Source: Thiohalomonadales bacterium (GTDB lineage: Bacteria > Pseudomonadota > Gammaproteobacteria > RBG-16-57-12). Taken from it: a stretch of DNA of 64,000 nucleotides. The stretch's first letter is position 1; each line of letters begins with the position of its first letter. The translations under genes were made by a program, and so were the position numbers. The DNA lies in contig JBNKQQ010000083.1 in NCBI GenBank assembly GCA_050295955.1, forward strand, positions 10,219 through 74,218. Reading direction: 5' to 3'. Below, piece by piece: positions 1 to 64,000 of this stretch. The notes beneath the pieces are model-generated. The model worked only from the letters and a program-made list of their open reading frames with translations. It made no database searches and was not told the origin of the DNA.

Positions 1-1248
1 TTGGTTTGGTATGACCTCAATTACCCGCACCTCCGCTTGGACAGAATTCGCAGCAATTTGTATCTGGTGTGATTGAATGGGATCCATATGGATATTTTGA
101 TCATCACTTTGATAAGCGCGTGCCTCAGCGGCTTTTTCCAAGGCATCAATCGTAATGGCCTTACCACTCTTGAATACCTGTGTAACCTTAAAACCCATCT
201 GCCAATTGTTTTGCTGGTTAAGTGATATCAGACAGAAATCTGCTTGATAACCTGGCGCAATAGCACCTCGGTCATTTAAGCCATAGATTTGCGCAGGCGC
301 GAAACTGGCAATACGGAAGATCTCTTCGGGCTTATGCCCTGCTTGCAAAGCAAGATTCAGAATGTAGTTAATGTGACCCTGTGCAGCGATATCCGCAGGG
401 TTGCGATCATCACTACATAGACTGAGCACGGATGACGTGTAAGCATTCAGCATTGGCAATAAGGTTTCCGCATTCTTGGCGCAAGAGCCTTCACGAATCA
501 ATACGTGTATCCCTTTACTAAGCTTTTCCTGAGCCTCCTTCAATGACGTAGATTCGTGGCAGCTATGAATCCCCGCGACACCATAAGCATTGAGATCTTT
601 ACCTGATAGTCCCGGACAATGGCCATCACGCTTCATGTCCGCGAAGCTGACCAGTTTATCCATTACATCCTGCTCACCGTGTAGCAAACCGGGAAAATTC
701 ATCATCTCTGCCAGCCCCAAAACGCGGGGATGATTACGAAAACCTTCGATATCAGCGGACTTTAACTCTGCACCACTGGACTCCAGCTGCATCTCTGGCG
801 TAGTGGATGGCACACAACTGGGGACCATCACAAATACATCCAAATCCAGGCCTTCTGAGGCATCCAACGCCCATTGGATACCCTCAGTCCCTTTCACATT
901 GGCAATCTCATGAGGGTCCCAAATAATGGAAGTGGTACCACAAGGCAGCACCGCCTGTTGAAAACGGGCTGGGGTCATCAGGCTGGACTCAACATGCACA
1001 TGGGAATCAATAAACCCCGGCACCAAAAACATACCGTTGCCATCAATAACTTGCTCCGCCTGGTACTCCTCGATAATCCCAACAATCTGGCCATTCTTAA
1101 CCGCTACATCACCTGCAATAAACTGCCCAGAGAAAACATCCAGGAATTTAACATTCTTGATTACCAAGTCAGCCTTATCGACGCCTCTGGCTGCATTAAT
1201 AGCTTGCTTGAGCTGGGCAGTATCTTGGAAGCGGGCTTTGGATTTCAT
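1..1248 (-). CDS. ade: Adenine deaminase, N-terminal ~416 aa; the 3' end runs off the window edge
   Basis: I translated the minus strand by hand. ATG is at 1248 with a GGAG RBS. Motifs VPGFIDSHVHVESS, DPHEIANVKG, GLAEMMNFPG and DGHCPGLSGKDLNAY match E. coli Ade. The ORF is absent from the track because it has no in-window stop. Confidence 0.8.
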   Translation of the reverse strand, partial: MKSKARFQDTAQLKQAINAARGVDKADLVIKNVKFLDVFSGQFIAGDVAVKNGQIVGIIEEYQAEQVIDGNGMFLVPGFIDSHVHVESSLMTPARFQQAVLPCGTTSIIWDPHEIANVKGTEGIQWALDASEGLDLDVFVMVPSCVPSTTPEMQLESSGAELKSADIEGFRNHPRVLGLAEMMNFPGLLHGEQDVMDKLVSFADMKRDGHCPGLSGKDLNAYGVAGIHSCHESTSLKEAQEKLSKGIHVLIREGSCAKNAETLLPMLNAYTSSVLSLCSDDRNPADIAAQGHINYILNLALQAGHKPEEIFRIASFAPAQIYGLNDRGAIAPGYQADFCLISLNQQNNWQMGFKVTQVFKSGKAITIDALEKAAEARAYQSDDQNIHMDPIQSHQIQIAANSVQAEVRVIEVIPNQ

Positions 1249-1330
1249 GGAGGACTCCTATGGTGGTAATCCTTAAAGAATAGCGGTAATTTGTAATAAC
1301 TCCTAGCGAGAGAAAATACAAAAAAGAAGT

Positions 1331-1429
1331 ATATTGATGGACAATTTTTTATTTGTTTTGTGTAGGAGCCTGCTTGCAGGCGATTTATTACTCAAGCTAT
1401 CGCCTGCAAGCAGGCTCCTACATCAATAT
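1331..1429. repeat. Inverted REP pair with outer inverted flanks (BIME-like palindromic unit) just upstream of the RAYT gene
   Basis: gtaggagcctgcttgcaggcgat at 1362-1384 and its exact reverse complement at 1399-1421. Outer atattgatg / catcaatat arms. The same REP recurs at 56975-57182. Confidence 0.75.
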
Positions 1430-1456
1430 AAAATATGATAGGGTTATTTTTCCAGG

Positions 1457-1909
1457 ATGGAAAAGGAGTCTACTATGGCAGAAGGGTACCGCCTAAGGAG
1501 AGGTCGCGTCTCGATACCCAACCAAATCTACAGCATAACTACGGTTACCAAAAATAGAGTACCCATTTTTCAGGACTTTTATCGAGCTAGAAAAGCGGTA
1601 CGTATCATTAAACGGCAGCACGATTCAGCATATTTTGATTGCCTCTGTTTTGTTGTCATGCCGGATCATCTACATCTGCTTATCCAGCTAAAAGAAACAA
1701 TCACTCTTGAAAAATCAGTTCAGCAAACTAAGGCGCTTATAAGTCAGCATTTGGGAATGCCTATTTGGCAGAAAGGTTTTTACGATAGAGCGATTCGTAA
1801 AGATGAGGATATTAAAGCTATTGCTCGTTATATCGTCGCTAATCCGCTACGTGCCGGTTTGGTGGGGAGTGTAAGAAAATATCCTCATTGGGATTGTATT
1901 TGGTTATAG
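1457..1909 (+). CDS. REP-associated tyrosine transposase (RAYT, IS200/IS605-like Y1 HUH transposase)
   Basis: HLHLL HUH motif, conserved Y near the C-terminus, ~150 aa. Overall similarity to E. coli RayT/YafM. The REP pair is immediately 5'. Confidence 0.8.
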   Translation: MEKESTMAEGYRLRRGRVSIPNQIYSITTVTKNRVPIFQDFYRARKAVRIIKRQHDSAYFDCLCFVVMPDHLHLLIQLKETITLEKSVQQTKALISQHLGMPIWQKGFYDRAIRKDEDIKAIARYIVANPLRAGLVGSVRKYPHWDCIWL

Positions 1910-2024
1910 GCGCCTTAAGGTCAGTGATCAGCATAAAGGTTGATGAGGTACTTGTGTATTAATTCCGCATCATCCCCCGCAATCAGGTAAAATCCCTCTT
2001 TTGCAACTCCAAAACGAGAGCAAC

Positions 2025-2888
2025 ATGGCGGTAAATTGGTATCCGGGCCATATGCATAAGGCTCAGAAAGAGATGAAGAAGGTGATGCCCAGCGTCGATC
2101 TTGTGATCGAGGTGATGGATGCGCGTATCCCCTATAGTAGTGAAAACCCGACGGTTTCCCGGTTACGGGAAAGTCGTCCCTGTATCAAAATCCTGAATAA
2201 AGAGGATTTGGCTGATCCCGCGGTGACCAAGCAGTGGCTGGCCTATTTTGAACAGGAGAAGGGGGTGAAGGCGATTGCTATGAGCTGTAATCAGCCTAAG
2301 CTGGTGCGGGGCAAGGTGATTGATCTGGCTCGCAAATTGTTACCTCACCGTAATGACGAGTTTCTCAAGCCAATCCGCGCTATGGTGATGGGAATTCCCA
2401 ATGTGGGAAAATCCACACTTATCAACGCATTGGCAGGAAAAAATATCGCCAAAGTGGGGGATGAGCCTGCCGTGACCAAGGCGCAGCAGAAGATTCATCT
2501 GGAGGGTGGAATTGTGCTCTCCGATACCCCTGGGATTCTCTGGCCACGAATGGGTAGTGAGGATTTCGGTTATCGCTTGGCAGTGTGTGGTTCGATCAAA
2601 AACACGGCGATTGAGTATGAAGATGTCGCCCTTTACGCTGCAGAGTATTTTCTTAAGGCCTATCCTGATGCGATCCGTGAACGCTATAAGTTGAAGCAAT
2701 TACCAGCAAATGATATTGCTTTACTTGAGGAGATCGGCCGTAAGCGTGGGGGCTTGCGCCCTGGTGGTCATATAGATCTACATAAGGCATCTGAGGTATT
2801 ACTGCACGATTTTCGCAGTGGGGCCATTGGTCGTCTGAGCCTGGAGACGCCAGCGATGATTCCGCAAAATGAGGCGGATGAAGAGTAA
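2025..2888 (+). CDS. rbgA: Ribosome biogenesis GTPase A (YlqF/RbgA)
   Basis: WYPGHM N-terminus. Circularly permuted GTPase motifs: NKEDL before GIPNVGKSTLIN, then DTPG. The track start at 2001 is probably upstream of the true ATG at 2025. Confidence 0.8.
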   Translation: MAVNWYPGHMHKAQKEMKKVMPSVDLVIEVMDARIPYSSENPTVSRLRESRPCIKILNKEDLADPAVTKQWLAYFEQEKGVKAIAMSCNQPKLVRGKVIDLARKLLPHRNDEFLKPIRAMVMGIPNVGKSTLINALAGKNIAKVGDEPAVTKAQQKIHLEGGIVLSDTPGILWPRMGSEDFGYRLAVCGSIKNTAIEYEDVALYAAEYFLKAYPDAIRERYKLKQLPANDIALLEEIGRKRGGLRPGGHIDLHKASEVLLHDFRSGAIGRLSLETPAMIPQNEADEE

Positions 2889-2915
2889 TGACAATATTTA
2901 TTATTGAGAGAGAAC

Positions 2916-3755
2916 ATGGCAGAAGCAGGTCAGTTTAATACCCTGAAGGTGGTTAAGGCGGTACCGTTTGGCCTCTATCTGGATGGTGGCGAGTGGGGCG
3001 AGATACTGCTGCCCAACAAGTTTGTGCCGCAGGGTACCCAGGTGGGGGATGAGGTAAGGGTCTTTCTCTATTTTGACTCAGAAGATGAGATTATTGCCAC
3101 CACTCAGCGACCCCGAGCGCGCTTGGGGCAGTTTGCCTATCTACAGGTGGTGGATATTAGCCGTCACGGCGCTTTTCTGGATTGGGGATTAGATAAGGAT
3201 TTGCTCTGCCCTAAAGGGGAGCAGCGTCGCCCGATGGAGAAAGACAAATCCTATATCGTTTATCTTAAACAGGATGGGGAAGGGCGTATCGTCGCCAGCT
3301 CCAAGATCGATCGCTTCCTGGATAAATATCGTTCGCGGGTGATGCCTGGGGATGAAGTGAGCCTGCTGATTGCCGAGAGTACCGAGTTGGGCAATAAAGT
3401 AATTATCAATGATGCCTACTGGGGGCTTATTCATAAGGCCGACATCTTCCAGGCACTCCGCTATGGTAAGCGGGTGAAGGGGTATATCAAGGCTGTACGG
3501 GAAGATGGTAAGATCGATGTAACACTGCGCAAAAAAGGTAAAGACAGAATCAGCGAATTGGCTGAACGTATCCTTGAAGAGCTAGAGAAAAAAGGTGGCT
3601 TTCTCCCTTTGCATGATAAGAGTGGTGCGGAGGAGATCAAGCGGGCCTTTGGCGAGAGTAAAAAGAGCTTTAAGAGCGCCATTGGTTACCTTTATAAGCA
3701 GAAGTTGATTACTATTGAAGAGAAGGGTGTACGCTTGGATAGGGGGAAATCATGA
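2916..3755 (+). CDS. S1-like RNA-binding protein, CvfB/YitL family
   Basis: Repeated S1-like segments and C-terminal winged-helix-like region typical of CvfB. The track start is a TTG at 2904. ATG at 2916 preferred. Confidence 0.6.
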   Translation: MAEAGQFNTLKVVKAVPFGLYLDGGEWGEILLPNKFVPQGTQVGDEVRVFLYFDSEDEIIATTQRPRARLGQFAYLQVVDISRHGAFLDWGLDKDLLCPKGEQRRPMEKDKSYIVYLKQDGEGRIVASSKIDRFLDKYRSRVMPGDEVSLLIAESTELGNKVIINDAYWGLIHKADIFQALRYGKRVKGYIKAVREDGKIDVTLRKKGKDRISELAERILEELEKKGGFLPLHDKSGAEEIKRAFGESKKSFKSAIGYLYKQKLITIEEKGVRLDRGKS

Positions 3756-4093
3756 AGATCTATATGCTGGCAGAGCAGAATGAACTCGATGAGATTGCTG
3801 CTGCTTTGGTGGAGCAGATCGAGAGTTGGTTACAGGCCAACCCGGGCCCATGTCAGTTAGTCTCCCCCGGCGATGAAGCTTTTGAAGTGGGACTGATACT
3901 GGAGACCAGTAAAAAAATCGCTTTGAAAGAGCCGGTGAACTTCCTTTATACCTTGGCCAAGGAGTATAAAGCAGAGTTTGTAGTAGGGATGATTAACGAG
4001 GATGGCAGTCGCGAAGATGTCTGCTTCTTCGGGTTCGAAGAGGGGCGGCCAGATATCAACGAGATTGGTCAGTATTTGGGCTTGAAGCGTTAG
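3752..4093 (+). CDS. Hypothetical protein (113 aa), translationally coupled to the upstream gene (ATGA overlap)
   Basis: ORF with 4-nt overlap to cvfB-like gene. No recognisable motif. Confidence 0.45.
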   Translation: MKIYMLAEQNELDEIAAALVEQIESWLQANPGPCQLVSPGDEAFEVGLILETSKKIALKEPVNFLYTLAKEYKAEFVVGMINEDGSREDVCFFGFEEGRPDINEIGQYLGLKR

Positions 4094-6740: not shown

Positions 6741-7343
6741 CTAGCGAGTGCTGAGATAAGCCGCCAGGGCTTCGAAATCTTCATCTGACATCATGCCAGT
6801 GATCATGTTCATCATATAGCCTTTTTCACTACGACGTATTCCTCCACGAAACTCGGCCATCTCTTTGACAAAGTAGGTGGTACTTAGCCCGATGACCATG
6901 GGGGAGACAACGCCTTCCGCATTGATGGTGCCTTTACCATCTACACCATGGCAAAAGTGGCATTTATAGGTACCGGTGTAGATTCTTTCACCCTCTTCGA
7001 TTAAGGCTTTATTGTTGTTTCGATAGCGTGCACGGGGCAACGTGCCATAGTAGGCTGCGACATCTTCAATTTTTTTCGGGTCGCTGATTAACATGGCCAG
7101 GCCATGCATTACGCTATCGTTTTGGTCTTCTTGGCGGAATTCCTTAATGCGACTGATGATATATTCAGGGATTTGCCCAGCGAGATTGGGGACCTCTGGA
7201 CTTGGACTGATTCCCGCATCTCCATGACAGGATACGCAGCTTTTGGCGACCTCTTTACCTGCGACGGGATCGCCTCCCGCAATAGCAAGGTGGCTGAAAG
7301 CAAGGCTAAGTGTGATTGCTAGTGCAAATTTCTTCTTAGTCAT
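6741..7343 (-). CDS. Diheme cytochrome c4
   Basis: Signal peptide and two CxxCH motifs (CVSCH, CHFCH), ~200 aa. Confidence 0.8.
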   Translation of the reverse strand: MTKKKFALAITLSLAFSHLAIAGGDPVAGKEVAKSCVSCHGDAGISPSPEVPNLAGQIPEYIISRIKEFRQEDQNDSVMHGLAMLISDPKKIEDVAAYYGTLPRARYRNNNKALIEEGERIYTGTYKCHFCHGVDGKGTINAEGVVSPMVIGLSTTYFVKEMAEFRGGIRRSEKGYMMNMITGMMSDEDFEALAAYLSTR

Positions 7344-7414
7344 AATGGGTATCTGTCCTAATTATTTTTGCTGATGATTATGCCTAAATATCCTGAAACA
7401 ACAAGAGGCTATTT

Positions 7415-7942
7415 TCACCTGATTGGTGTGGTATCCAGTTCTCCATCGAGTCCCAGCTGTTCACAATACTCGGTAAACTGGAGCTTGAGCTCATCGACGC
7501 TTTTCGTGCTGTTATTTTGTAGCTCAATATCCAGAGAAAACATTGGGCTGCCAGTATGAGGGGCTGGATAGGTATCGGTTTCCAGTGACTGTATGTTTAG
7601 CTGCTGCTGGGAAAAGAACTCGGTGACTTTGTGTACAATACCTGGGTGATCCAGTGCTTCAACATGGGCATGCAGTAGCGGTGTCGTGACAGATGCGGGT
7701 TGAGTAAGTTTGCTGGTGATGGTGAGCCCCATCGTTTGTGACAGCGATGGTAAATGGGATTGCAGTTGCTCAATGGCCTCTTTACCGCTGACTACTAATA
7801 GCATCAGTGCAAATTCACCGCCAAGGATACTCATTCGGCTCTCCTCGATATTACCTCCTTGGTCGAGTATTGCCTTGGATATACGCTCGACGATACCTGG
7901 ACGGTCTTGCCCCAGTGCACTGATTACAAGGTATTGATTCAC
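7415..7942 (-). CDS. gcvR: ACT-domain regulatory protein, glycine cleavage system repressor GcvR-like
   Basis: YLVISALGQDRPGIV and second ACT repeat DHPGIVHKVTEFF parallel E. coli GcvR (HYLVITALGADRPGIV). Confidence 0.65.
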   Translation of the reverse strand: MNQYLVISALGQDRPGIVERISKAILDQGGNIEESRMSILGGEFALMLLVVSGKEAIEQLQSHLPSLSQTMGLTITSKLTQPASVTTPLLHAHVEALDHPGIVHKVTEFFSQQQLNIQSLETDTYPAPHTGSPMFSLDIELQNNSTKSVDELKLQFTEYCEQLGLDGELDTTPIR

Positions 7943-9813: not shown

Positions 9814-10544
9814 TATTGTACTACCTCTGGTTGTTGGGCCTGCATGCGGGCAGAGGCATCGGCCAGTGATTGACGGGTTAACCCTAATTTATCTAATACC
9901 AGGTCATAATGATCTGGGCGAATAAACTGCAACATTGCTTCCCCGCTTTGGTCGATGATGGCATCCAGTCCTAGCTCTGGATAAAGGAAATGCAGGATCT
10001 CATCCTGAGGGTGGACTAGGATTGGGTTGCCAAATTTGTTGGTAATATCCTCGGGAGAGAGGCGAATGCGGGGGATGGCGGTGATGGTGAGTAGTGCCAT
10101 GCCGTCAATCATTGATTGATGTTCATCTGCAACTTCCAGCTTGATATTGCCGGAAGGGAAGGCAATCGGCTTGTGTGCCTTTTCGCGAATGGCTTTTAGC
10201 TGTTCGTCACTGGCTTCCAGTCCCATCAACATCTTACTGTTATTGGGCATGTTGCCGATAAAAGCTTCGATGTTATGTTCAGGTGGAAGCTCGTTACCCT
10301 TTTCATCTTTTTCTGGCGGCATGATAAACAGCGCACGCTGGGAGCGGCTAGCGAGGATCTTTTCCGCCTCTTTCAGCGTGGTTTCGCCGAGTTTGATACC
10401 GCCAAACAGCAGTAAGTTGCCATCTTCCACTTTGGTGATTTGGGTGGCTTGGGCAAAGTGTTCGCTGGACTCTTCGGAGGGCCAGAAAGTCCAGGCCAGC
10501 AGAATGGCAAGAGTGAGATATAGCAGCTTGATTTGGGTACTCAT
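9813..10544 (-). CDS. Periplasmic or membrane-anchored hypothetical protein, translationally coupled to the downstream UreH-like gene
   Basis: Signal-anchor N-terminus. Its stop overlaps the start of the 9007-9813 gene (ATGA). Confidence 0.5.
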   Translation of the reverse strand: MSTQIKLLYLTLAILLAWTFWPSEESSEHFAQATQITKVEDGNLLLFGGIKLGETTLKEAEKILASRSQRALFIMPPEKDEKGNELPPEHNIEAFIGNMPNNSKMLMGLEASDEQLKAIREKAHKPIAFPSGNIKLEVADEHQSMIDGMALLTITAIPRIRLSPEDITNKFGNPILVHPQDEILHFLYPELGLDAIIDQSGEAMLQFIRPDHYDLVLDKLGLTRQSLADASARMQAQQPEVVQ

Positions 10545-10683
10545 AAGTTAACTTCTTTACTATTTGGCTATTCAGTTCACCCTATTGTACCTTAAGGAGT
10601 AGTGGAACGGACCACCAATCCACAAACCGCCTGGAGTATACCGGGATTTGTTGGGGAAATGAGTGTGACAAATTGTCGCAGAG

Positions 10684-11082
10684 GTGTTGGAGGCTATGCA
10701 TTTTCACTATCACAAAGCGCTACTCTTTCTGTTGTTGCTGGCTGAACTGTGGATGGCGTTCAATGCCGATGTGGAGCTACGTTATAACCTTCACCTGATC
10801 ATGGGTACAGTCTACTTTGGTGTTTCTTTCTGGTTTATCTTTGGTGAGCGGCAGTGGTGGCCTTATCTATTTGCCGGGGCTGCTTATGTCGCTTACATCA
10901 TTGTTTATCGAATACTGCTGGTGTTTGAGGTGCCCTTTGAAAGGGATCTTTACCATTTGGGCTTGGCGTTGCTGTGGGGCGGTGTGTTGGCGATCCATCT
11001 GTTTGTTGAGCGGGCTTTTGGGCCACCAATGGCCCGTCCTCCTAAAGACCGTAATAAGCGCTATTTCCCTGATGATGACTAG
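10684..11082 (+). CDS. Small integral membrane protein, hypothetical
   Basis: 132 aa with about 4 hydrophobic helices. Confidence 0.45.
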   Translation: MLEAMHFHYHKALLFLLLLAELWMAFNADVELRYNLHLIMGTVYFGVSFWFIFGERQWWPYLFAGAAYVAYIIVYRILLVFEVPFERDLYHLGLALLWGGVLAIHLFVERAFGPPMARPPKDRNKRYFPDDD

Positions 11083-56922: not shown

Positions 56923-56960
56923 TTGGTAGGTGCGCGCCCTGCAAAAGTAAATTCATCCAA

Positions 56961-57200
56961 TTCTAAAAGTGTGTGTAGGAGCCTGCTTGCAGGCGATGGG
57001 CTTTTATATCGCTATTGCTGTAGGAGCTTGCCCTGCAAGCGAACCCACTCAATTCTAATAAGCGTGTGTAGGAGCCTGCTTGCAGGCGATGGGTTTTTAT
57101 ATCGCTACTGCTGTAGGGGCTTGCCCTGCAAGCGAACCCACTCAATTCTAATAAGCGTGTGTAGGAGCCTGCTTGCAGGCGATGGGTTTTCATATCGCTA
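56961..57200 (+). repeat. Tandem BIME-like array: ~91-bp units each containing REP (gtaggagcctgcttgcaggcgat) and variant REP' (gtagg[a/g]gcttgccctgcaagcga)
   Basis: Units begin at ~56961, 57051 and 57143. REP is identical to the pair at 1362-1421. A further REP variant lies at 57528-57550. Confidence 0.8.
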
Positions 57201-57204
57201 CCGC

Positions 57205-57571
57205 GATGAAGTGGATATCACTTCGTGAGGTTTTATTGGCATCGGGATTCCGTCCCGATAGCCGGGTCACTTTTTTACCGTAAAAAAGTAACCAAAAAAG
57301 CTCTCCCGAAAAATGCGGTCGCCAACAACGCGACTTCCCTCGGTTCTCACTATGAACAGCACTCCTGGCAACTCGCTTCGCTCAAACATGCCATCCGCTT
57401 AATCTGTTCATCGCTGCGAGCCTCGGCACATTTGAACGGGGATGAAAGGCATGGCATATTCCGCTAACGCGGAAGAAAAAGTCATTCTGCACTTGATTCA
57501 GAATCCAGGCTAATTCTAAAAAGCGTATGTGGGAGCCTACTTGCTGGCGATGGGTTTTATATCGCTACCGC
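57205..57571 (+). repeat. Structured repeat element, copy L1 (hairpin-rich, ~200-bp conserved core)
   Basis: Hairpins gaagtg-gatat-cacttc, atcggga-ttccg-tcccgat, cttttttac-c-gtaaaaaag. Core ggtcgccaacaacgcgacttccctcggttctcac...caaacatgccatccgc...gcgagcctcggc...catttgaacgg. Confidence 0.75.
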
Positions 57572-57900
57572 GATGAAGTGGATATCACTTCGTGAGGTTT
57601 TGTTGGCATCGGGATTCCGTCCCGATAGCCGGGTCACTTTTTTACCGTAAAAAAGTAACCCAAAAAACTCCCCCGAAATATGGTCGCCAACACCGAGACT
57701 TCCCTCGGCTCTCGCTACGAATGGCGCTACTGGCAACTCGCAAACTACGCTCAAACATGCCATCCGCTCTTTCCGTTCGTAGCTACGAGCCTCGGCAGTA
57801 TTTGAACGGGAATGAACGGCGTTTATATATTTCGCTAACGCGAAAGATGAAGAGCCGCTTCGCGGAGTAATTGAATGGGTGCTTGCGACCCGTTGTAGCC
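57572..57900 (+). repeat. Structured repeat element, copy L2
   Basis: Same architecture as L1 with indels and paired substitutions. Putative ORF frames differ between copies, so noncoding. Confidence 0.75.
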
Positions 57901-58090
57901 ATTGGCAGGCAGCTAATTGAACGTCAGCCATTGGTAAAAATTAACAATCAATATATACATTCAAATAGATTGGGTTGACTAGGTATCCCATGCAAGCAAA
58001 GTTGCAAATTGGCTTAATGATCAATAGTGCTCTTGGAAGGAACCTCCTTCCGATAACACTACTTGCACCGGATTGCTGTTGGTGAATGAA

Positions 58091-59173
58091 TTACGAATGG
58101 GGGGGCTCAAGTCTAGGTGAACAAACCCCTGATGTAGGCATCGTAATTCCCCATGGATAAGCCGGAGTTTCTCCTCGTTGATACTGGTAAACTGTTACCT
58201 TAGGTAAATTTCGTTTGTCATAAAGTGTTCCAAAGCGGAATACCAAACTGCTCGGCCCAGCGATAAAAAGGTGGATGTGGTTAATTCCGTAACTGTCCAA
58301 TTTAGTGAGCATTTCAAGAAATTGCCTGCCTAATGCTCGCTGCTTGTCTTCTGACCAGTGAGAGTCTGGCCCAGCATTCTGCAATTCGAGATGAATTAAT
58401 GGAATATTAGGTAGTTTCTTCTGAATCTCAGGTAAATTGGCTATGTATGATATAGAAATGGCTAAGACTGCCTCTGTTGATTCTTGGTCAAGTTGTGTCC
58501 CAAGATATTTAGTATCAAAGCGATTTCCATCGTCAGCTTTTTCAAGCTGCTGCCATCTTTTTTTATGTCGCTCCCAATCAAAGATATGAATTTCCGATTC
58601 ATCATCTAGAATTGTCCCTGCTAGAAAAGTTAGAGGAACAGGGGCCAGTCCTCCAAATACAGTTGTAATATCATTTCTATTGTTTCCAGCTTCATATTGG
58701 TCAAGCTGATAAGTGATATGTACTAATTTATCTAGAGCAACTTGAGGTTCAACGATATAGCCATCTCTAATATTTTGCCTGAGATCTACTAGTATGCTAT
58801 TACGTCTTCCCTCAAAGTAGGGGGGGAGCGATTCATTTAAAGGAGTACCGGCTGAATCGCGAAGCCCTCTTACTTCAATAACATTTACTCTTTTGCGCGA
58901 TAACGCTCGATATTCCATGGTATGTCTAATTATTTCCCATGGTATGGCTATTGATATTAATGCAATACCGAGGAAGTAAGTTGTATAGATCAAGAGTGAA
59001 GGAATATTTCCCTCAATATCGATATCTAATTTGAAAGAGTCTCCACTTTCAACAGAAAAGGTAATATCTGCAGCAGCAGCTAGAGTGAGTAGAAATACCC
59101 CTGCTCTTAGAAAATACAATGCAGGTGACTTTTTACGAATAATCCAGTATATGATTTGTTTAATTATTGTCAC
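58091..59173 (-). CDS. CBASS-like effector: N-terminal 2-TM domain fused to a SAVED-like (CARF-related) sensor domain
   Basis: Two N-terminal TM helices. C-terminal ~270 aa ending HIHLFIAGPSSLVFRFGTLYD, resembling the SAVED C-terminal motif. Immediately downstream of the nucleotidyltransferase. Confidence 0.5.
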   Translation of the reverse strand: MTIIKQIIYWIIRKKSPALYFLRAGVFLLTLAAAADITFSVESGDSFKLDIDIEGNIPSLLIYTTYFLGIALISIAIPWEIIRHTMEYRALSRKRVNVIEVRGLRDSAGTPLNESLPPYFEGRRNSILVDLRQNIRDGYIVEPQVALDKLVHITYQLDQYEAGNNRNDITTVFGGLAPVPLTFLAGTILDDESEIHIFDWERHKKRWQQLEKADDGNRFDTKYLGTQLDQESTEAVLAISISYIANLPEIQKKLPNIPLIHLELQNAGPDSHWSEDKQRALGRQFLEMLTKLDSYGINHIHLFIAGPSSLVFRFGTLYDKRNLPKVTVYQYQRGETPAYPWGITMPTSGVCSPRLEPPHS

Positions 59174-59195
59174 GTCTTTAGTTACCTCCCCGCTT

Positions 59196-60710
59196 CTATT
59201 GGATATTCACTATAAATTGCCCACTACGCGCTGCTAGCAGTCCATCTTTTACTATAAAGCATTCTATGCTGTGCATACCTTTATAGGAGGTGGACTCCTG
59301 TCTTGTTAATGAGTTGCAGTCTCTAGAAAAGTCACCCCGTAATCCACAAGCCAATTTAGCTTCGTTACCAGTATTTACCACCTGCCAGTGTACTTTATAT
59401 GGAGGTGGAATATTTGTTGTAGCCTCAAACTTTAAATCGCAGTTTTTCGGCAAGGCTTCACCGTTGCTATCAAATCGGTATGGCCCATATTTATTCTTTC
59501 TATATGTAGCCTTTGCAATTTGAACATTCCCTTGTACTGAAGTCTTCCAAGGGGGAGTTTGTTTATGGGGAGGATTTAGAGCTAACTGTTTGCTTGAATG
59601 ATGGTGTATGTCACTGTAATTTACGTTGTTCTTTGAAAGTGATGCATCGATTAGTTTTTTTCCTAATCTAGGTGTGAGGGTATTAGCTGCAGATTCCTCA
59701 TTTAGTGCATTAGCTGCACTGTAGAAATCTTCTCTCGCTTGGGCGAGCCACTCATAGAATGCACCTTTCCTTTCAGGATATTGTTGCCAGCGGTCAGAAA
59801 AATTTTCAGCCGGGTCCGTCGGGTTGGGTATCCATGACACTCCATTACGTGTCTCTATAAAGCTATCCATGCGTTGAAGAATACTATACAGTGCCCCTGA
59901 TATAGTCGGTTCTTGCTGGTATGCATGACCTGCCAATGTGGTTAAAATAATGGATATGGGCTTTTCATCCAATCGTTTAGCAAACATAGTATTCCTATGA
60001 TGCTTGAGAAGTTGAATAGCTGACTGTAGTGGTGTACGAACCTTATAGTCTGGTATATCTTCAACGCTAGCATTAATTGCATAAGCAAGTTCCTTTTTTC
60101 TCTGCTCAAAAATCACAGTCATTCGGGATTTGAACCAGTCGCTATATCCCTTAGGGTTGCTATGTGGCCAATAAGAAGTGATGCATTTGTAATATGGGTG
60201 ATCCCTATCAGTAATGGCGATTGCAGATTCAGACCATTTCGAAGAAAATCCTCTGCTAGCAAGAAGATATCTCATATCCTCCCCGTCAGGGATTGCAGGC
60301 AGTGTATCCAAATGAAATTGTGCACCATCAGCATAGTTTTGGGTCCAACAGCGTCTGCCTTCATCAGGTATTTTCATTTCATGTGCTTTCGCATACTCCT
60401 TTAACTCAAAACCCAAGGCTTCCTTCAATTGATGTTGTGTTAATGAGCTTTTTGACAAAGTCAGTTCACAAACTAGATCAATGTCATAATCGTCATCACC
60501 TGAGTGGGGTTTAATGACTGTTCCTAAACGAAATGATCCTTGAACGTATACCTGTGGATTTGCATCTTTAAGCTTGGAGCTATCTCTGTTTAGCCATTTA
60601 CCAACTGATGTATAGCTGCGCTCTGCTGCTTCATATCTGCTGGGAGATATTTGTAGTGCTTCTACTGCATTTTCAAGTAGCTTTTCAGTGTGTTTCTTAA
60701 TGTTTGTCAT
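59196..60710 (-). CDS. SMODS/CD-NTase-type (cGAS/DncV-like) nucleotidyltransferase with ~300-aa C-terminal extension (possible AGS-C sensor)
   Basis: QGSFRLGTVIKPHSGDDDYDIDLV = GS...[DE]x[DE] Pol-beta NTase motif, in SMODS-like N-terminal context (..Y..V..WL). 504 aa. Confidence 0.6.
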   Translation of the reverse strand: MTNIKKHTEKLLENAVEALQISPSRYEAAERSYTSVGKWLNRDSSKLKDANPQVYVQGSFRLGTVIKPHSGDDDYDIDLVCELTLSKSSLTQHQLKEALGFELKEYAKAHEMKIPDEGRRCWTQNYADGAQFHLDTLPAIPDGEDMRYLLASRGFSSKWSESAIAITDRDHPYYKCITSYWPHSNPKGYSDWFKSRMTVIFEQRKKELAYAINASVEDIPDYKVRTPLQSAIQLLKHHRNTMFAKRLDEKPISIILTTLAGHAYQQEPTISGALYSILQRMDSFIETRNGVSWIPNPTDPAENFSDRWQQYPERKGAFYEWLAQAREDFYSAANALNEESAANTLTPRLGKKLIDASLSKNNVNYSDIHHHSSKQLALNPPHKQTPPWKTSVQGNVQIAKATYRKNKYGPYRFDSNGEALPKNCDLKFEATTNIPPPYKVHWQVVNTGNEAKLACGLRGDFSRDCNSLTRQESTSYKGMHSIECFIVKDGLLAARSGQFIVNIQ

Positions 60711-60729
60711 ATATTCTTAACCTCTCCAA

Positions 60730-60963
60730 TCAATCTTTAGGTGGATATGGGTCATTGCCATGACTATCGCTACTGGCAATACGTCCATTTTTATTGTGAA
60801 TGCGCAATTCAGTGCCTTGATTGCGACTGGTTTCACGCCCTTTGCTGATAGCATCAGCTTTTGTTTTATGGTGGCTGCTTGCCCGTTGAGCTTCACCACG
60901 TTTAACATCCCAGCCACCTTGAGGGTTGGATACGATGTGATGCGTTTTAGGACCTTTTGGCAT
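60730..60963 (-). CDS. DUF2188 small protein, immediately upstream of and co-oriented with the nucleotidyltransferase
   Basis: KGPKTHHIV.NP.GGWDVKR...RASSHH.TKADAI..GRE.SRNQGTEL.IH.K.GRI...DSHGNDP.PPKD matches DUF2188 consensus. Confidence 0.65.
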   Translation of the reverse strand: MPKGPKTHHIVSNPQGGWDVKRGEAQRASSHHKTKADAISKGRETSRNQGTELRIHNKNGRIASSDSHGNDPYPPKD

Positions 60964-61269
60964 AATAATGCTCCTTTGCTTTATATATTTAACTAATTTT
61001 TAATCGATTATTAAGGGTTTCCTCAATTGCATACCTAATAGCAATTAGAGATAAATATCCCCTAGTGCTTATATATACTGCTGAGAATAAAAAAGTGGCG
61101 ATTTTTTGTAAAAACTTATAAGTCACTGTTAATGAAGGATAAAATTTTGTGCCGAATTCATTTTGTTAATTTGGCCTGTTGTAGATATAATTATTCTTAT
61201 ATAAATTTTATGGTGAATTTTTTCTCCACTTTTGCATTTTGAACAGTATTAGGGATATAGGAGGAAGTT

Positions 61270-61842
61270 TTGAGCGACCAAGCACATTACACTGAAATTG
61301 AGGTTGAGGAACTTATTCAAGGGCTTACTGATTCTCAAATAGCCAAGATGCTGCATGTTTATCGAAATAAGGGATGTCAGCAAAGGGCGGGACTATCAGG
61401 GCATGATGTTTTTCAAAATGCTGTAATGAAAGCTTTATCAAAAAAGAATTGCTGGAAAAAGGGAATCCCTGCTGAAGCTTATCTAATTATGCTAGGAAAA
61501 AATTATATAAGTAATGAGGAGAAAAAATATTCACGGAATGTTTATGAATCACAATCTGATAATTTACAGATTGAGGCACTTCCTATAACAGCTGTAGACT
61601 GCTCTGAACACACTCATGAGTTCATAATTCAGGAATGGGTTGGTAAAATTGTTAGCCTCTTTGCTGATGATAAAGATGCTTCTTGTTTTTTGAAAAGCAA
61701 GTTGGCACAGGCCAAAAAAGCTAAAATACTCGCTTTATGTAGATTTACAGATCAGGCATATCGAAATGTTGAAAAAAGGATTAAAGATAAGGCAAGGAAG
61801 AGATTTCCTGGTGGTGTGCCGTTTAATGAGGCAACGCTATGA
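61270..61842 (+). CDS. Hypothetical protein (190 aa), first gene of a divergent tri-cistronic operon
   Basis: TTG start with GGAGGA RBS. No recognisable domain. Its stop overlaps the next start. Confidence 0.4.
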   Translation: MSDQAHYTEIEVEELIQGLTDSQIAKMLHVYRNKGCQQRAGLSGHDVFQNAVMKALSKKNCWKKGIPAEAYLIMLGKNYISNEEKKYSRNVYESQSDNLQIEALPITAVDCSEHTHEFIIQEWVGKIVSLFADDKDASCFLKSKLAQAKKAKILALCRFTDQAYRNVEKRIKDKARKRFPGGVPFNEATL

Positions 61843-62276
61843 GTGCTGAATTTCTTAAAATGATCAATGAGTACATTATCGATTCAATTATTGAATGTGA
61901 TGATGATGAGTATTTGTCAAATATAGGAAAGGATGGTTATTCATCTCAAGAGGACATTGACTTTGCTAGATCATTTATCCAAGCCACTGTTAGGGAGCTA
62001 AGGCAAGAGCGCTTAAATGCTAGTAGAGAGCGTTATGCTCAATCAAAAAGCCAAAAAAGTGGTGTATTAGATACCATTTCTACAACAAAGCCTCTCCAAG
62101 AGATGCTTACTCAGATTATTTCAGTGATGCAAAGTGAAGAGCAGGTGCCTGATGGGTTACTTATCGCTTTTAGGGAACAAGGGAAAACTGGTAGTGAAGA
62201 GGGTATTCGCAATATATGGAAATCTCTCGTTGAGCTTGGATTAATTGATCCTGAGAAGGATGAAAATTCGAAATGA
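61839..62276 (+). CDS. Hypothetical acidic protein (145 aa), second gene of the operon
   Basis: ATGA overlaps on both sides. No recognisable domain. Confidence 0.4.
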   Translation: MSAEFLKMINEYIIDSIIECDDDEYLSNIGKDGYSSQEDIDFARSFIQATVRELRQERLNASRERYAQSKSQKSGVLDTISTTKPLQEMLTQIISVMQSEEQVPDGLLIAFREQGKTGSEEGIRNIWKSLVELGLIDPEKDENSK

Positions 62277-63040
62277 GGTTCAAGCAACAACCCAATGATA
62301 TTTTGAAAAGGCTTGGCATGTATGAGCCTGAAGATATTGATTTGGATTTAATTGCATTTGATTTGGGTGCTGAGGTGAAAAGAGCATCGTTGAATGATTG
62401 TGAAGGGAATATCCTAGGAACGTCAACGAAGGCAATTATTACAATTAATAAGATTTCTAGAATTGAAAGGCAGCGTTTTTCATTAGGACATGAGTTGGGA
62501 CACTGGGTAAATGATCGGGGAAAAAATTTAACTTATCGTTGTACTACGGACGATATGCGGCAACGCTCTATGATTCAAGAAGATTTTCGCCAAAATAAAG
62601 AAGTGCGTGCAAATCAATTTTCAGCAGAGCTCCTTATGCCTGACTTCATATTCAAAAGGTATGCTGAAAATTTGGATATTATCCTAAAGACAGCAAGATA
62701 CCTTGCAAATACTTTTAATGTGTCACTCACAAGTACCGTTATAAGGCTTGTTGAGTTATCTGAGAGGCCATGCATGATTATTTGCTGGGACAAGATGGGT
62801 AAACGGCGCTGGTTCTCACGTAACGATATTATTCCTGAAAAAATATGGCCACATGAAAGAATTTTTCATCCTCAAGAAGTATTCAAGCTTTCAGATGGAG
62901 TAGAGGTGGATGCTGATAAATGGATCAACTTGGCAGGATCAGAGAATTACACCGTAATCGAAAGTATATTTTCAAATACATATGACTTTTTATCACTCAT
63001 TTGGTGGAAGGATGAAGAGCAGCTAGCTCACTATCTATGA
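62273..63040 (+). CDS. ImmA/IrrE-family zinc metallopeptidase (CapP-like) with C-terminal Cys/His-containing domain
   Basis: HELGHW (HExxH) at the N-terminal peptidase core. Downstream E in QFSAELLMP. C-terminal CMIIC ... HERIFH. Confidence 0.6.
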   Translation: MRFKQQPNDILKRLGMYEPEDIDLDLIAFDLGAEVKRASLNDCEGNILGTSTKAIITINKISRIERQRFSLGHELGHWVNDRGKNLTYRCTTDDMRQRSMIQEDFRQNKEVRANQFSAELLMPDFIFKRYAENLDIILKTARYLANTFNVSLTSTVIRLVELSERPCMIICWDKMGKRRWFSRNDIIPEKIWPHERIFHPQEVFKLSDGVEVDADKWINLAGSENYTVIESIFSNTYDFLSLIWWKDEEQLAHYL

Positions 63041-63084
63041 GCTGCTACCTCAGATGATTCTCTACCTATAGCTATGACTACTTA

Positions 63085-63420
63085 GTACCGCATGCGGCCA
63101 TCCAATTTTTCCTACAAAGCGGTTCTTTTTCTTTTGCGTTAGCAAAACATAAAATGCTTTTCACATCCCGTTCAAATGCAGCCGAGGCTCGCAGCTGTGG
63201 ACGGATAGAGCGGATGGCATGTTTGAGCGTAGTTTGCGAGTTGCCAGGAGCACCGTTCGCAGTGAGAACCGAGGGAAGTCGCGTTGTTGGCGACCGGTAT
63301 TTTCGGGCCTTCTCTTTGATTACTTTCTCTTGGCCGTTCAAGAGAAAGTCATTAGCTGTCGGGCTACCCCCGACATCTCATTAATCGTCACGCAGTGACA
63401 CATAATCTTACCGCAGAGCC
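63085..63420 (-). repeat. Structured repeat element, copy R1 (inverted relative to L1/L2)
   Basis: The reverse complement matches the L-copy core (ggtcgccaacaacgcgacttccctcggttctcac...). Hairpins actttctcttg-aacggc-caagagaaagt and tgtcggg-ggtag-cccgaca replace the L-copy hairpins at the same positions. Confidence 0.75.
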
Positions 63421-63489
63421 AGTAGGGCAGGCTCACTACAGTGATAGTGATATAAAAATCGCGACTCGATTACTGTATTGCATTTCTGT

Positions 63490-63835
63490 GAGTTGAAGCC
63501 TGGATTCTGAATCAAGTTCAGAATGACTTTTTCTTTCGCGTTAGCGAAACATTAAATGCAGTTAATTCCCGTTCAAATACAGCCGAGGCTCGCAGCTGTG
63601 GACGGATAGAGCGGATGGCATGTTTGAGCGTAGTTTGCGAGTTTCCAGGAGCACCGTTCGCAGTGAGAACCGAGGGAAGTCGCGTTGTTTGCGACCTGTA
63701 TTTTCGGGCGGCCTTCTCTTTGATGACTTTCTCTTGGCCGTTCAAGAGAAAGTCATTAGCTGTCGGGTTACCCCCGACATCTCATTAATCGTCACGCAGT
63801 GACACATAATCTTACCGCAGAGCCAGTAGGATGCG
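63490..63835 (-). repeat. Structured repeat element, copy R2
   Basis: Near identical to R1. Confidence 0.75.
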
Positions 63836-63939
63836 GTGATAACCGCATCGATCGAGACAGAATCATTACACGACTGATGCGGTTCGTTCCTCACCACATC
63901 CTACATTGAATGACCGCTCCAGCCGCTTTTGGCCATCTA

Positions 63940-64000
63940 ATTTATCTCGCGTAGCGGTTCTTCTTTTTTCGCGTTAGCGGAATATAAAATGCCTTTCCTA
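63940..64000 (-). repeat. Structured repeat element, copy R3 (partial, truncated by window end)
   Basis: cttcttttttcgcgttagcggaatataaaatgc parallels the R1/R2 starts. Confidence 0.5.

What the first reader, a model, noticed from the sequence alone, without database searches (positions are those of the whole stretch)
63085..64000. Inverted arrays of the same structured repeat bracket the defence island (composite-transposon-like or recombination hotspot architecture)
Two-plus direct copies on the left (57205-57900, plus strand) face at least 2.5 copies on the right (63085-64000, minus strand), with the AT-rich island exactly between them. Inverted terminal repeats around cargo, with no integrase, are reminiscent of composite or MITE-mediated mobilisation. 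Alternatively, repeated structured elements may form a hotspot where defence cassettes are exchanged by homologous recombination.
Basis: partly seen in the sequence, partly recalled or inferred. Interest (0 to 1): 0.7.

Follow-up and report, generated by a model that had tools for sequence, protein, structure and literature searches.

The report
Structured repeat arms flanking CBASS cassette
Two facing sets of a ~320-base, hairpin-rich, non-coding repeat really do bracket a foreign CBASS anti-phage cassette. The repeat belongs to an apparently undescribed family that in other bacteria occurs as the same inverted pair with nothing in between, so the cassette sits at the centre of a palindromic intergenic element.

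Summary
Units L1 and L2 (+ strand) face R2, R1 and a cut-off R0 (- strand) around a 5.15-kb AT-rich CBASS cassette. No other copy lies in the 64 kb.

The unit is non-coding and structured, with compensatory pairs, and matches no Rfam family. It has host-like G+C (0.48-0.50; island 0.39). It is interleaved with REPs that match those beside a RAYT gene at 1457-1909.

A profile of spurious translations found relatives in other proteobacteria:
- In a MAG (nuoC/nuoD spacer), Ralstonia (after cphA) and Pasteurella (dapF/yigA spacer), two units lie heads-out and tails-in as one uninterrupted 425-500-nt palindrome.
- On an ENA contig, one unit follows purL, and its tail faces a lower-GC stretch holding a candidate defence gene.

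All relatives share hairpin H3, and all but the Pasteurella copy also an invariant apical loop AACTCGC..GCTCAAACA.

So the arrays are the two arms of a MITE-like palindromic element family, here split by cargo. Arguments against a recently active composite transposon:
- The cores differ by 16-19%.
- No transposase, terminal inverted repeat or target duplication was found.
- Related CBASS cassettes elsewhere lack the repeats.

Whether the arms move the cargo or only mark an insertion site is open. The functional strand is also unresolved.

The parts
56958..57201 (+). Tandem array (2.6 x 93 nt) of GTAG-tagged REP doublets directly after the minE terminator. Exact REP copies at 56975, 57068 and 57161.
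   Evidence: TRF, the repeat finder D2/D5, REP pattern search.
57202..57511 (+). Unit L1, with tail type A. Order: hairpins H1-H2-H3, A-rich linker, P1-closed core (57303-57481) holding hairpin hp4 and a long hairpin, then hairpin hp5. Preceded by ..CTAC.
   Evidence: (204 bits).
57529..57550 (+). REP copy (3 mismatches) between L1 and L2.
57569..57891 (+). Unit L2, with tail type B, abutting the island. Core 57668-57852.
   Evidence: (207 bits).
57892..63088 (.). Foreign AT-rich cassette (G+C 0.39). Genes: SAVED-2TM effector 58091-59173(-), CD-NTase 59196-60710(-), DUF2188 60730-60963(-), 190-aa weakly ECF-sigma-like 61270-61842(+), 145-aa unknown 61839-62276(+), CapP M78 peptidase 62273-63040(+).
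   Evidence: Pfam and PADLOC, NCBIfam, composition, Logan contig L018.
63089..63421 (-). Unit R2, with tail type B, abutting the island. Core 63125-63309.
   Evidence: (225 bits).
63497..63825 (-). Unit R1, with tail type A. Core 63527-63710.
   Evidence: (228 bits).
63826..63904 (.). Inverted pair (REPIN-like) of a second REP type, GTAGGATGCGGTGA, between R1 and R0.
   Evidence: sequence.
63923..64000 (-). Partial unit R0 (tail B plus hp5), cut by the window end. The right array continues beyond the window.
   Evidence: D7, D8; 21 bits, E 0.001.
1362..1909 (+). REPtron: a REPIN made of two inverted copies of the same 22-nt REP (1362-1421), followed by the RAYT gene (1457-1909).
   Evidence: Pfam Y1_Tnp, NCBIfam NF047646 at 131 bits against a cut-off of 80, REP search, sequence.

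Best explanation
The two arrays are the two arms of one palindromic, non-coding, hairpin-rich intergenic element. It belongs to a family that appears undescribed and is present at low copy number in beta- and gamma-proteobacteria.

The family unit has these parts:
- a conserved hairpin H3 (ACTTTYYYTTG-loop-CAARRRAAAGT);
- an A-rich linker;
- a stem-closed domain whose long hairpin carries the invariant apical loop AACTCGC..GCTCAAACA.

Elsewhere two units lie heads-out and tails-in as an uninterrupted 425-500-nt palindrome in gene spacers, which is MITE-like. In this genome a 5.15-kb foreign CBASS cassette lies at the centre of symmetry, tail B to tail B. Each arm has also been amplified in tandem together with the host's RAYT-cognate REPs.

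Shown: the anatomy, the structure conservation, the family relationship, the empty pairs elsewhere, the host-like G+C of the arms and the foreign G+C of the cargo.

Inferred: the arms are old resident DNA, and the cassette arrived later at or through the tail-to-tail centre. It could have come by insertion at a fragile quasi-palindrome centre, or by exchange using the arms. The arms would act as single-stranded hairpin structures, either in transcripts reading out of or into the cassette or in DNA. They do not look like the ends of a recently active transposon.
For: Anatomy and copy number.

Non-coding:
- Indels are not multiples of 3.
- No conserved small ORF.
- No homologue of the 124-aa ORF.
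- None of the ten repeat ORFs is in the protein collection.

Structure:
- Within the window, 49 pairs are 97% paired and 7 are compensatory; 0 of 500 shuffles reach this, and slid controls pair at about 40%.
- Across three genomes, 40 pairs are 94% paired and 23 are compensatory, with slid controls at 37-47%.
- Fold z-scores are -2.0 to -3.2.

Family:
- A profile search of 1.84 billion proteins found three spurious ORFs at E 1e-5 to 5e-4.
- The covariance model hits L042 at E 6.5e-8 and both arms of the Ralstonia element on opposite strands at E 4e-4 and 1e-3.
- Alignments A6 and A7 show invariant AACTCG and H3 columns.

Empty inverted pairs: L043 10138-10635 between nuoC and nuoD; L054 6977-7472 after cphA; L056 about 6996-7420 between dapF and DUF484/xerC.

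Second cargo-facing case: L042 runs purL, unit, then a lower-GC stretch with a PDC-S35/CAP12-TIR gene.

Arms resident, cargo foreign: G+C 0.50 and 0.48 against 0.39. The host REPs are identical to those beside the RAYT gene. Cores differ by 16-19%.

The cassette is found without the arms elsewhere.

Literature: ordered REP/REPIN clusters are reiterated in tandem with their flanking DNA (PMC3116915, PMC3733652).
Against: - Only one locus of one organism shows cargo between two arms, and the right array runs off the window.
- The L042 contig ends before a second arm could be seen, and its gene is only a candidate defence gene.
- No same-locus empty site is available.
- The cross-genome structure alignment was fitted to the model, so its pair counts lean towards the structure.
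- The functional strand is unresolved. G.T against A.C counts favour the forward strand 12 to 2, but from a forward-built model. Consensus folding energy favours the reverse strand, -59 against -44 kcal/mol. A terminator-like hairpin with a T-run and the neighbouring TwoAYGGAY RNA in Pseudoalteromonas also lie on the reverse strand.
- Tandem amplification of arms is not seen in the other instances.
Confidence: 0.45

Rival explanations
1. Non-autonomous transposon. The units are the structured ends, heads outward, of a mobile element whose transposase is encoded elsewhere. The 425-500-nt palindromes are its MITE form. The CBASS cassette is cargo that travels with the arms.
For: - Empty heads-out pairs lie inside operon spacers in unrelated genomes.
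- TA flanks both ends of the L043 element, and every unit head in the window is preceded by ..TA-C.
- The family is patchy, at low copy number, across classes.
- A Y1 (RAYT) transposase is present in the genome.
Against: - No transposase lies between or near any arms seen.
- The arms differ by 16-19% while the cargo still has foreign G+C.
- Target duplication is unclear in L054 and L056.
- Several tandem heads on each side are untypical for transposon ends.
- CBASS relatives at 64-85% identity lie in other contexts without arms.
- The RAYT's cognate sequence is the GTAG REP, not the unit.
Confidence: 0.22
2. Tandem small-RNA genes. Each unit is an independently transcribed sRNA of about 170 nt on the reverse-of-unit strand, so transcription runs outward from the island on both sides. 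It ends at the hp4 hairpin plus U-run. The island merely landed between two divergent sRNA arrays.
For: - A terminator-like GTCGCGTTGTTGGCGAC followed by a T-run lies on that strand in three of the four copies.
- An AT-rich TAWAAT box lies just upstream of the P1 stem in all copies.
- The reverse strand folds better in the consensus.
- In Pseudoalteromonas an Rfam sRNA (TwoAYGGAY, 56.7 bits) occupies the equivalent position and strand next to an H3-like hairpin.
- The invariant 20-nt loop could be a seed.
Against: - There is no convincing -35 box, and promoter-like sites are not enriched (12 found, 17.8 expected).
- The loop has no complement of 11 nt or more elsewhere in the window.
- G.T against A.C counts favour the other strand.
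- Single units elsewhere are co-oriented, in the forward sense, with the upstream gene.
- The window units do not match TwoAYGGAY or any other Rfam family.
Confidence: 0.18
3. Passive REP-cluster amplification. The units are just flanking DNA carried along when the RAYT-associated REPs were reiterated, and they have no role in the island's presence.
For: - Ordered REP/REPIN clusters include reiterated flanking DNA (PMC3116915, PMC3733652).
- REPs sit at the unit boundaries, and the RAYT is present.
Against: - Units are conserved across genera that lack these REPs, with compensatory changes and an invariant loop.
- The same heads-out pairing recurs in three other genomes without REPs.
Confidence: 0.08
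4. Assembly artefact. The inverted arrangement or the copy number results from misassembled repeats in a metagenome-assembled contig.
For: - The short-read Logan contigs break at the repeats.
- R1 and R2 are 94-98% identical.
Against: - Both inner junctions are reproduced at 100% identity in an independent assembly.
- L1, L2 and the R units are diverged enough to be assembled uniquely.
Confidence: 0.04

Closest known systems
Palindromic MITE-like intergenic elements of proteobacteria (ERIC/IRU, Correia, YPAL). Comparison from my own knowledge, not tested here.
   Same: - Non-coding imperfect palindromes found in gene and operon spacers.
- Able to fold as long hairpins in transcripts.
- Patchy distribution.
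- TA next to the ends in at least one copy (L043).
   Different: - The unit is much larger (about 230-330 nt per arm, 425-500 nt per pair).
- Each arm has its own multi-hairpin domain and an invariant loop.
- Copy number per genome is very low (1-3 places).
- Here the two arms are 5 kb apart with cargo between them and are tandemly amplified.
REP/REPIN ordered clusters and BIMEs, with their RAYT (a REPtron)
   Same: - GTAG-tagged REPs identical to those beside the RAYT gene are reiterated in tandem with flanking DNA at this locus.
- The literature describes such clusters (PMC3116915, PMC3733652).
   Different: - The roughly 320-nt unit is not a REP. It has no GTAG plus short palindrome of its own.
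- It is conserved in genera without these REPs.
- It pairs heads-out independently of REPs.
MITE-flanked or IS-flanked composite elements, such as integron mobilisation units and composite transposons. Comparison from my own knowledge.
   Same: Inverted copies of a non-coding repeat bracket a cargo that lacks its own recombinase.
   Different: - No terminal inverted repeats within the units and no target duplication found.
- The arms differ by 16-19%.
- The cargo is found elsewhere without the arms.
TwoAYGGAY RNA (Rfam RF01731)
   Same: In Pseudoalteromonas a TwoAYGGAY RNA sits next to an H3-like hairpin, in the position of the unit core and within a small tandem and inverted array. Both are stem-closed two-hairpin domains of about 165 nt with unknown function.
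   Different: - The window units do not match the model even at E up to 10.
- They lack AYGGAY hairpin loops.
- Their conserved loop is AACTCGC..GCTCAAACA.
Neisseria intergenic mosaic elements and 'minimal mobile elements'. Comparison from my own knowledge.
   Same: Arrays of repeat units interleaved with short inverted repeats flank variable cassettes that lack mobility genes. Exchange is proposed to go through flanking homology.
   Different: The sequences are unrelated. Exchange of alternative cargo at this locus could not be tested.

Membership tests
IS-flanked composite transposon | Flanking copies encode a transposase. | tested here: not met
   No conserved ORF. The 124-aa ORF has no homologue. 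None of ten repeat ORFs is in the protein collection. Indels break all frames.
IS-flanked composite transposon | Near-identical flanking copies. | tested here: not met
   L against R cores are 82-84% identical, and the heads are largely not alignable.
MITE | Terminal inverted repeats at the ends of each unit. | tested here: not met
   The longest head-to-tail inverted match within a single unit is 5-6 nt. However, a pair of units forms full-length inverted arms in L043, L054 and L056.
MITE | Target-site duplication. | tested here: inconclusive
   TA..TA flanks the L043 pair. L054 and L056 are ambiguous. The outer right end of the window copy lies beyond the window. The island junctions carry no repeat of 8 nt or more.
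MITE | Multiple dispersed copies in a genome. | tested here: inconclusive
   One locus in the 64 kb. One to three places per replicon in Aeromonas, Ralstonia and Pseudoalteromonas. The whole source genome was not available.
REP/REPIN cluster with RAYT | GTAG-tagged short palindromes, extragenic, and the same sequence flanking a RAYT gene. | tested here: met
   Six copies of GTAGGAGCCTGCTTGCAGGCGA: two form an inverted pair upstream of the RAYT gene and four lie in the left array, against 0 expected. RAYT matches NF047646 at 131 bits, cut-off 80. This holds for the REPs, not for the 320-nt unit.
REP/REPIN cluster with RAYT | The repeated unit itself is a REP or REPIN. | tested here: not met
   The unit has a different multi-hairpin architecture. 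It occurs in loci of other genera with no such REP.
Any Rfam 15 RNA family, including TwoAYGGAY | Match to the covariance model at the gathering score. | tested here: not met
   No match at the gathering score in the window. Nothing meaningful at E up to 10 on the arrays. Homologues L042, L043, L053, L054 and L056 are also unmatched. Only the Pseudoalteromonas neighbour matches TwoAYGGAY.
Type I toxin-antitoxin tandem repeats (ldr, sib/ibs, hok/sok) | A conserved small hydrophobic ORF in every unit. | tested here: not met
   No small ORF is conserved across the four copies, and none has a conserved hydrophobic stretch.
Integron cassette array (attC) | Direct orientation of sites, an integrase, and R''/R' core sites. 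| tested here: not met
   The two sides are inverted. There is no integron integrase; the only tyrosine recombinase in the window is a XerD-like gene about 11 kb away, identified by synteny with L012.
CBASS with CapH/CapP regulation (the cargo) | CD-NTase, effector and CapP peptidase. | tested here: met
   PADLOC cyclase at 2.4e-208, SAVED-2TM effector at 1e-123, capP at 6.4e-50. Pfam results agree.
CBASS with CapH/CapP regulation (the cargo) | A CapH helix-turn-helix repressor next to CapP. | tested here: not met
   Relatives L035 and L036 have a 106-107-aa HTH protein there. Here that position holds a 190-aa weakly ECF-sigma-like protein and a 145-aa protein with no match.

The most novel reading that the evidence does not exclude
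The unit defines a new class of structured nucleic-acid element, widespread at low copy number in beta- and gamma-proteobacteria. Its heads-out inverted pair would be a cargo-accepting or cargo-moving module. Defence cassettes would be captured at the tail-to-tail centre, and might be mobilised in trans, for example by a single-strand (HUH/Y1-type) enzyme that recognises hairpin H3 and the invariant AACTCGC..GCTCAAACA loop. That would be a transposase-free vehicle for defence islands.
Probability: 0.12. Interest if true: 0.8.

Novelty: new variant of a known kind. Interest (0 to 1): 0.5.

Why it matters
Many defence islands have no recognisable mobility genes, and how they arrive is an open question.

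Here a complete CBASS cassette sits exactly at the centre of a palindromic, structured element. The empty form of that element exists in unrelated bacteria. This gives a concrete, searchable signature: hairpin H3 plus the invariant loop, heads-out arms, and the distance between the arms. A survey for that signature would show whether such elements regularly hold variable cargo.

Independently of the cargo, the unit is a conserved structured element with strong covariation and no Rfam family. It also causes spurious ORF calls in public databases.

Tried and rejected
- Rfam at the gathering score and at lax E-values on the window and both arrays: nothing.
- tRNA and tmRNA search: none.
- blastn of both arrays against the plasmid and phage collections: nothing.
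- The 19-mer GCTCAAACATGCCATCCGC in genome contigs and metagenome contigs: only chance singletons. In hindsight the 19-mer was too lineage-specific.
- Viral scans with core patterns: nothing.
- Same-locus comparative genomics failed. The organism has no relative above 90% protein identity. MinE relatives at 77-87% each have a different downstream gene and neither the unit nor the REP.
- Protein-coding reading rejected.
- Type I toxin-antitoxin reading rejected.
- Retron, integron, IS200/IS605-end and bridge-RNA readings were considered and dropped. No reverse transcriptase, integrase, TnpB or IS110 recombinase is nearby, and the head and tail hairpins are unlike each other.
- Csr/Rsm sponge reading: 5 GGA in 110 nt by eye, but only two fall in internal loops. 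Not pursued.
- Search for a target of the conserved loop in the window: no complement of 11 nt or more.
- E. coli genomes hold no copy. The L048 element has no plasmid match.
- A sequence-only MAFFT alignment of 10 family members gave a consensus structure for H3 only. A model-guided alignment was needed.
- TRF does not report the 370-400-nt arrays themselves.

Full report
**Observation.**
- The repeat finder and blastn and a MAFFT alignment define units of about 310-330 nt.
- The copies are L1 57202-57511 and L2 57569-57891 on the + strand, and R2 63089-63421 and R1 63497-63825 on the - strand. A third right-hand copy, R0 (63923-64000), is cut by the window end.
- A covariance model of the 184-nt core, run with filters off, scores the four copies at 204-228 bits. 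It finds nothing else in the 64 kb except R0.
- Between the inner unit ends lies a 5.15-kb segment of G+C 0.39. The rest of the window is 0.49 and the arrays are 0.48-0.50.
- The segment is a complete CBASS operon: SAVED-2TM effector, CD-NTase, DUF2188, two unknown proteins and a CapP peptidase.
- A Logan assembly of the same organism reproduces both inner junctions.

**What the unit is.** It is non-coding.
- Copies differ by 1-, 2- and 4-nt indels.
- No small ORF is conserved.
- The longest ORF has no homologue, and none of ten ORFs in the repeats is in a 15-billion-protein collection.

It is also structured. From head to tail it has hairpins H1, H2 and H3, an A-rich linker, and a CCCG/CGGG stem (P1). 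P1 encloses a short hairpin (hp4) and a roughly 90-nt long hairpin with a 22-nt apical loop. Then follow hairpin hp5 and one of two alternative tails, A or B.
- On the four copies, 49 pairs are 97% paired and 7 have compensatory changes. No shuffle out of 500 reaches this, and slid controls pair at about 40%.
- Fold z-scores are -2.0 to -3.2 on both strands.
- No Rfam family matches.

**Local context.**
- The left array continues a 2.6 x 93-nt tandem of GTAG-tagged REP doublets that begins right after the minE terminator. A further REP separates L1 from L2.
- The same 22-nt REP occurs only once elsewhere in the window. There it forms an inverted pair just upstream of a 150-aa gene, which is a REP-associated tyrosine transposase (Pfam Y1_Tnp; NCBIfam NF047646 at 131 bits, cut-off 80).
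- A second REP type forms an inverted pair between R1 and R0.
- So the arrays are resident, REP-laden host DNA. Tandem reiteration of REPs together with flanking DNA is documented (PMC3116915 and PMC3733652).
- Both sides have the same order, read inward: a unit with tail A, then a unit with tail B, then the island.
- Core identities are L1-L2 81%, L-R 82-84% and R1-R2 94%, whereas the L1 and L2 heads are 95% identical (D3). The arrays are therefore old and partly homogenised, not recent copies.

**Tests of the transposon reading.**
- Single units have no terminal inverted repeats; the longest match is 5-6 nt.
- The island junctions share no direct or inverted repeat of 8 nt or more.
- No transposase or integrase lies in the island.
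- The longest exact L-R matches are 41, 36 and 36 nt. That is enough for rare RecA-dependent inversion, but not for excision.
- The closest CD-NTase relatives (85%, 66% and 64% identity) carry the same CapP / DUF2188 / CD-NTase / SAVED-2TM module. They lie next to Zorya, or in a BREX-and-integrase island, and have no trace of the unit.
- Same-locus comparison was impossible. All proteins tested are singletons at 90% identity. The nearest MinE relatives each have a different gene after minE.

**Relatives of the unit.**
- DNA scans with a 19-mer of the core found only chance matches.
- I then aligned the translations of the reverse frame of three units and searched the profile against 1.84 billion protein representatives. 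Three short arginine-rich ORFs matched at E 1e-5 to 5e-4. They are evidently spurious translations of homologous DNA.
- Two of their contigs could be read.
- On L042 the unit follows the purL stop codon directly (covariance model E 6.5e-8). Its tail faces a stretch of lower and uneven G+C that holds a CAP12/TIR protein matching PADLOC candidate PDC-S35.
- On L043 a 498-nt element (10138-10635) lies between nuoC and nuoD. It consists of two units, heads-out and tails-in, with TA on either side.
- Searching with these sequences found the H3-plus-linker motif in Ralstonia wenshanensis, Pasteurella multocida, Aeromonas caviae, Pseudoalteromonas and several IMG/VR contigs.
- In Ralstonia (after cphA, 6977-7472) and Pasteurella (between dapF and DUF484-xerC, about 6996-7420), the element is again an uninterrupted heads-out pair. 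In Ralstonia the model hits both arms on opposite strands.
- In an alignment of ten units from four genomes and one IMG/VR contig, the H3 core columns and AACTCG of the apical loop AACTCGC..GCTCAAACA are invariant, although the stems below the loop differ completely.
- A model-guided alignment of six sequences from three genomes gives 94% paired cells and 23 of 40 pairs with compensatory changes. Slid controls pair at 37-47%. That alignment leans towards the model.

**Interpretation.** The window's two arrays are the two arms of a member of this family. The CBASS cassette occupies the position that in the other genomes is the tail-to-tail junction. It does not show that the arms moved this cassette.

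Three facts argue against recent mobilisation: the divergence of the arms, their host-like composition, and the arm-free relatives of the cassette. I therefore favour old resident arms with a later arrival of the cargo at the centre. The cargo may have arrived because a long quasi-palindrome centre is breakage-prone, or because the arms provide homology; both mechanisms are inferred. I keep trans-mobilisation as the main rival.

**Unresolved: the strand.**
- For the forward strand: 12 G.T against 2 A.C pairs, though from a forward-built model. Single units elsewhere are also co-oriented with the upstream gene.
- For the reverse strand: better consensus energy and a terminator-like hp4 with a T-run. 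In Pseudoalteromonas a TwoAYGGAY RNA (RF01731, 56.7 bits) occupies the core position on that strand beside an H3-like hairpin.

**Novelty.** Palindromic intergenic elements and REP clusters are known kinds. New here are this unit family (not in Rfam 15, and not found in the literature I could search) and its split-by-cargo form. I rate it a new variant of a known kind, of moderate interest. The interest would rise sharply if a family-wide survey showed cargo between arms to be recurrent.

Noticed in passing
window 1362-1909: A REPtron: a REP-associated tyrosine transposase gene (RAYT, NF047646 at 131 bits) preceded by an inverted pair of the same 22-nt GTAG REP that is tandemly reiterated after minE. 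These are the only two REP sites in the 64 kb.
   Followed up: yes
window 61270-63040: The CBASS regulatory module is unusual. Relatives have a roughly 106-aa HTH CapH next to CapP. Here CapP follows a 190-aa protein with weak ECF-sigma-like similarity (NF058625 E 6.5e-4; PDB 5uxx E 0.06) and a 145-aa protein with no match. This may be a sigma/anti-sigma variant of CapH/CapP control.
   Followed up: partly
window 56869 onward; loci L012, L013, L016, L038, L040: Every relative with MinE at 77-87% identity has a different gene right after minE (folE2, an hslV-like gene, a SEC-C protein, a 157-aa ORF, a rhodanese). The 3' flank of minCDE is therefore a synteny break point in this clade. L012 keeps the upstream synteny (ffh to minE) but has only 86 bp after minE.
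   Followed up: partly
window 57892-57898 and 63041-63088: GTAG tetranucleotides face inward at both island edges: GTTGTAG right after the L2 tail, and three GTAG within 48 nt on the minus strand after capP. The statistics are weak. This could hint at REP/RAYT-type processing at the junctions.
   Followed up: no
L055 (Pseudoalteromonas sp. NC201, NZ_CP022523.1) 6840-7650: A small tandem and inverted array holds two TwoAYGGAY RNA matches (RF01731, 56.7 and 43.1 bits). One lies directly beside an H3-like hairpin. This suggests H3-type hairpins accompany different stem-closed RNA-like domains.
   Followed up: partly
L043 (GCA_027449605.1, DAIDLH010000131.1) 10001-10693: The 498-nt palindromic element sits inside the nuo operon between nuoC and nuoD and has been annotated as a 230-aa protein. 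About 30 nt resembling the nuoD start are present on both sides of the insertion.
   Followed up: partly
P0247-P0250 (public protein collections): Arginine-rich 'hypothetical proteins' containing FSL[VL]TFSW..KRK are spurious translations of this element family. They could serve as a handle for finding more copies, and they are annotation artefacts worth flagging.
   Followed up: partly
L042 (ENA ERZ27256875 k141_4409760) 1-3800: Downstream of purL and the unit lies a stretch of G+C 0.37-0.59. It holds a CAP12/PCTIR TIR-domain protein (PADLOC PDC-S35, 9e-21) and four unknown ORFs. This may be a second defence cargo next to a unit tail. The contig ends before a second arm could appear.
   Followed up: partly
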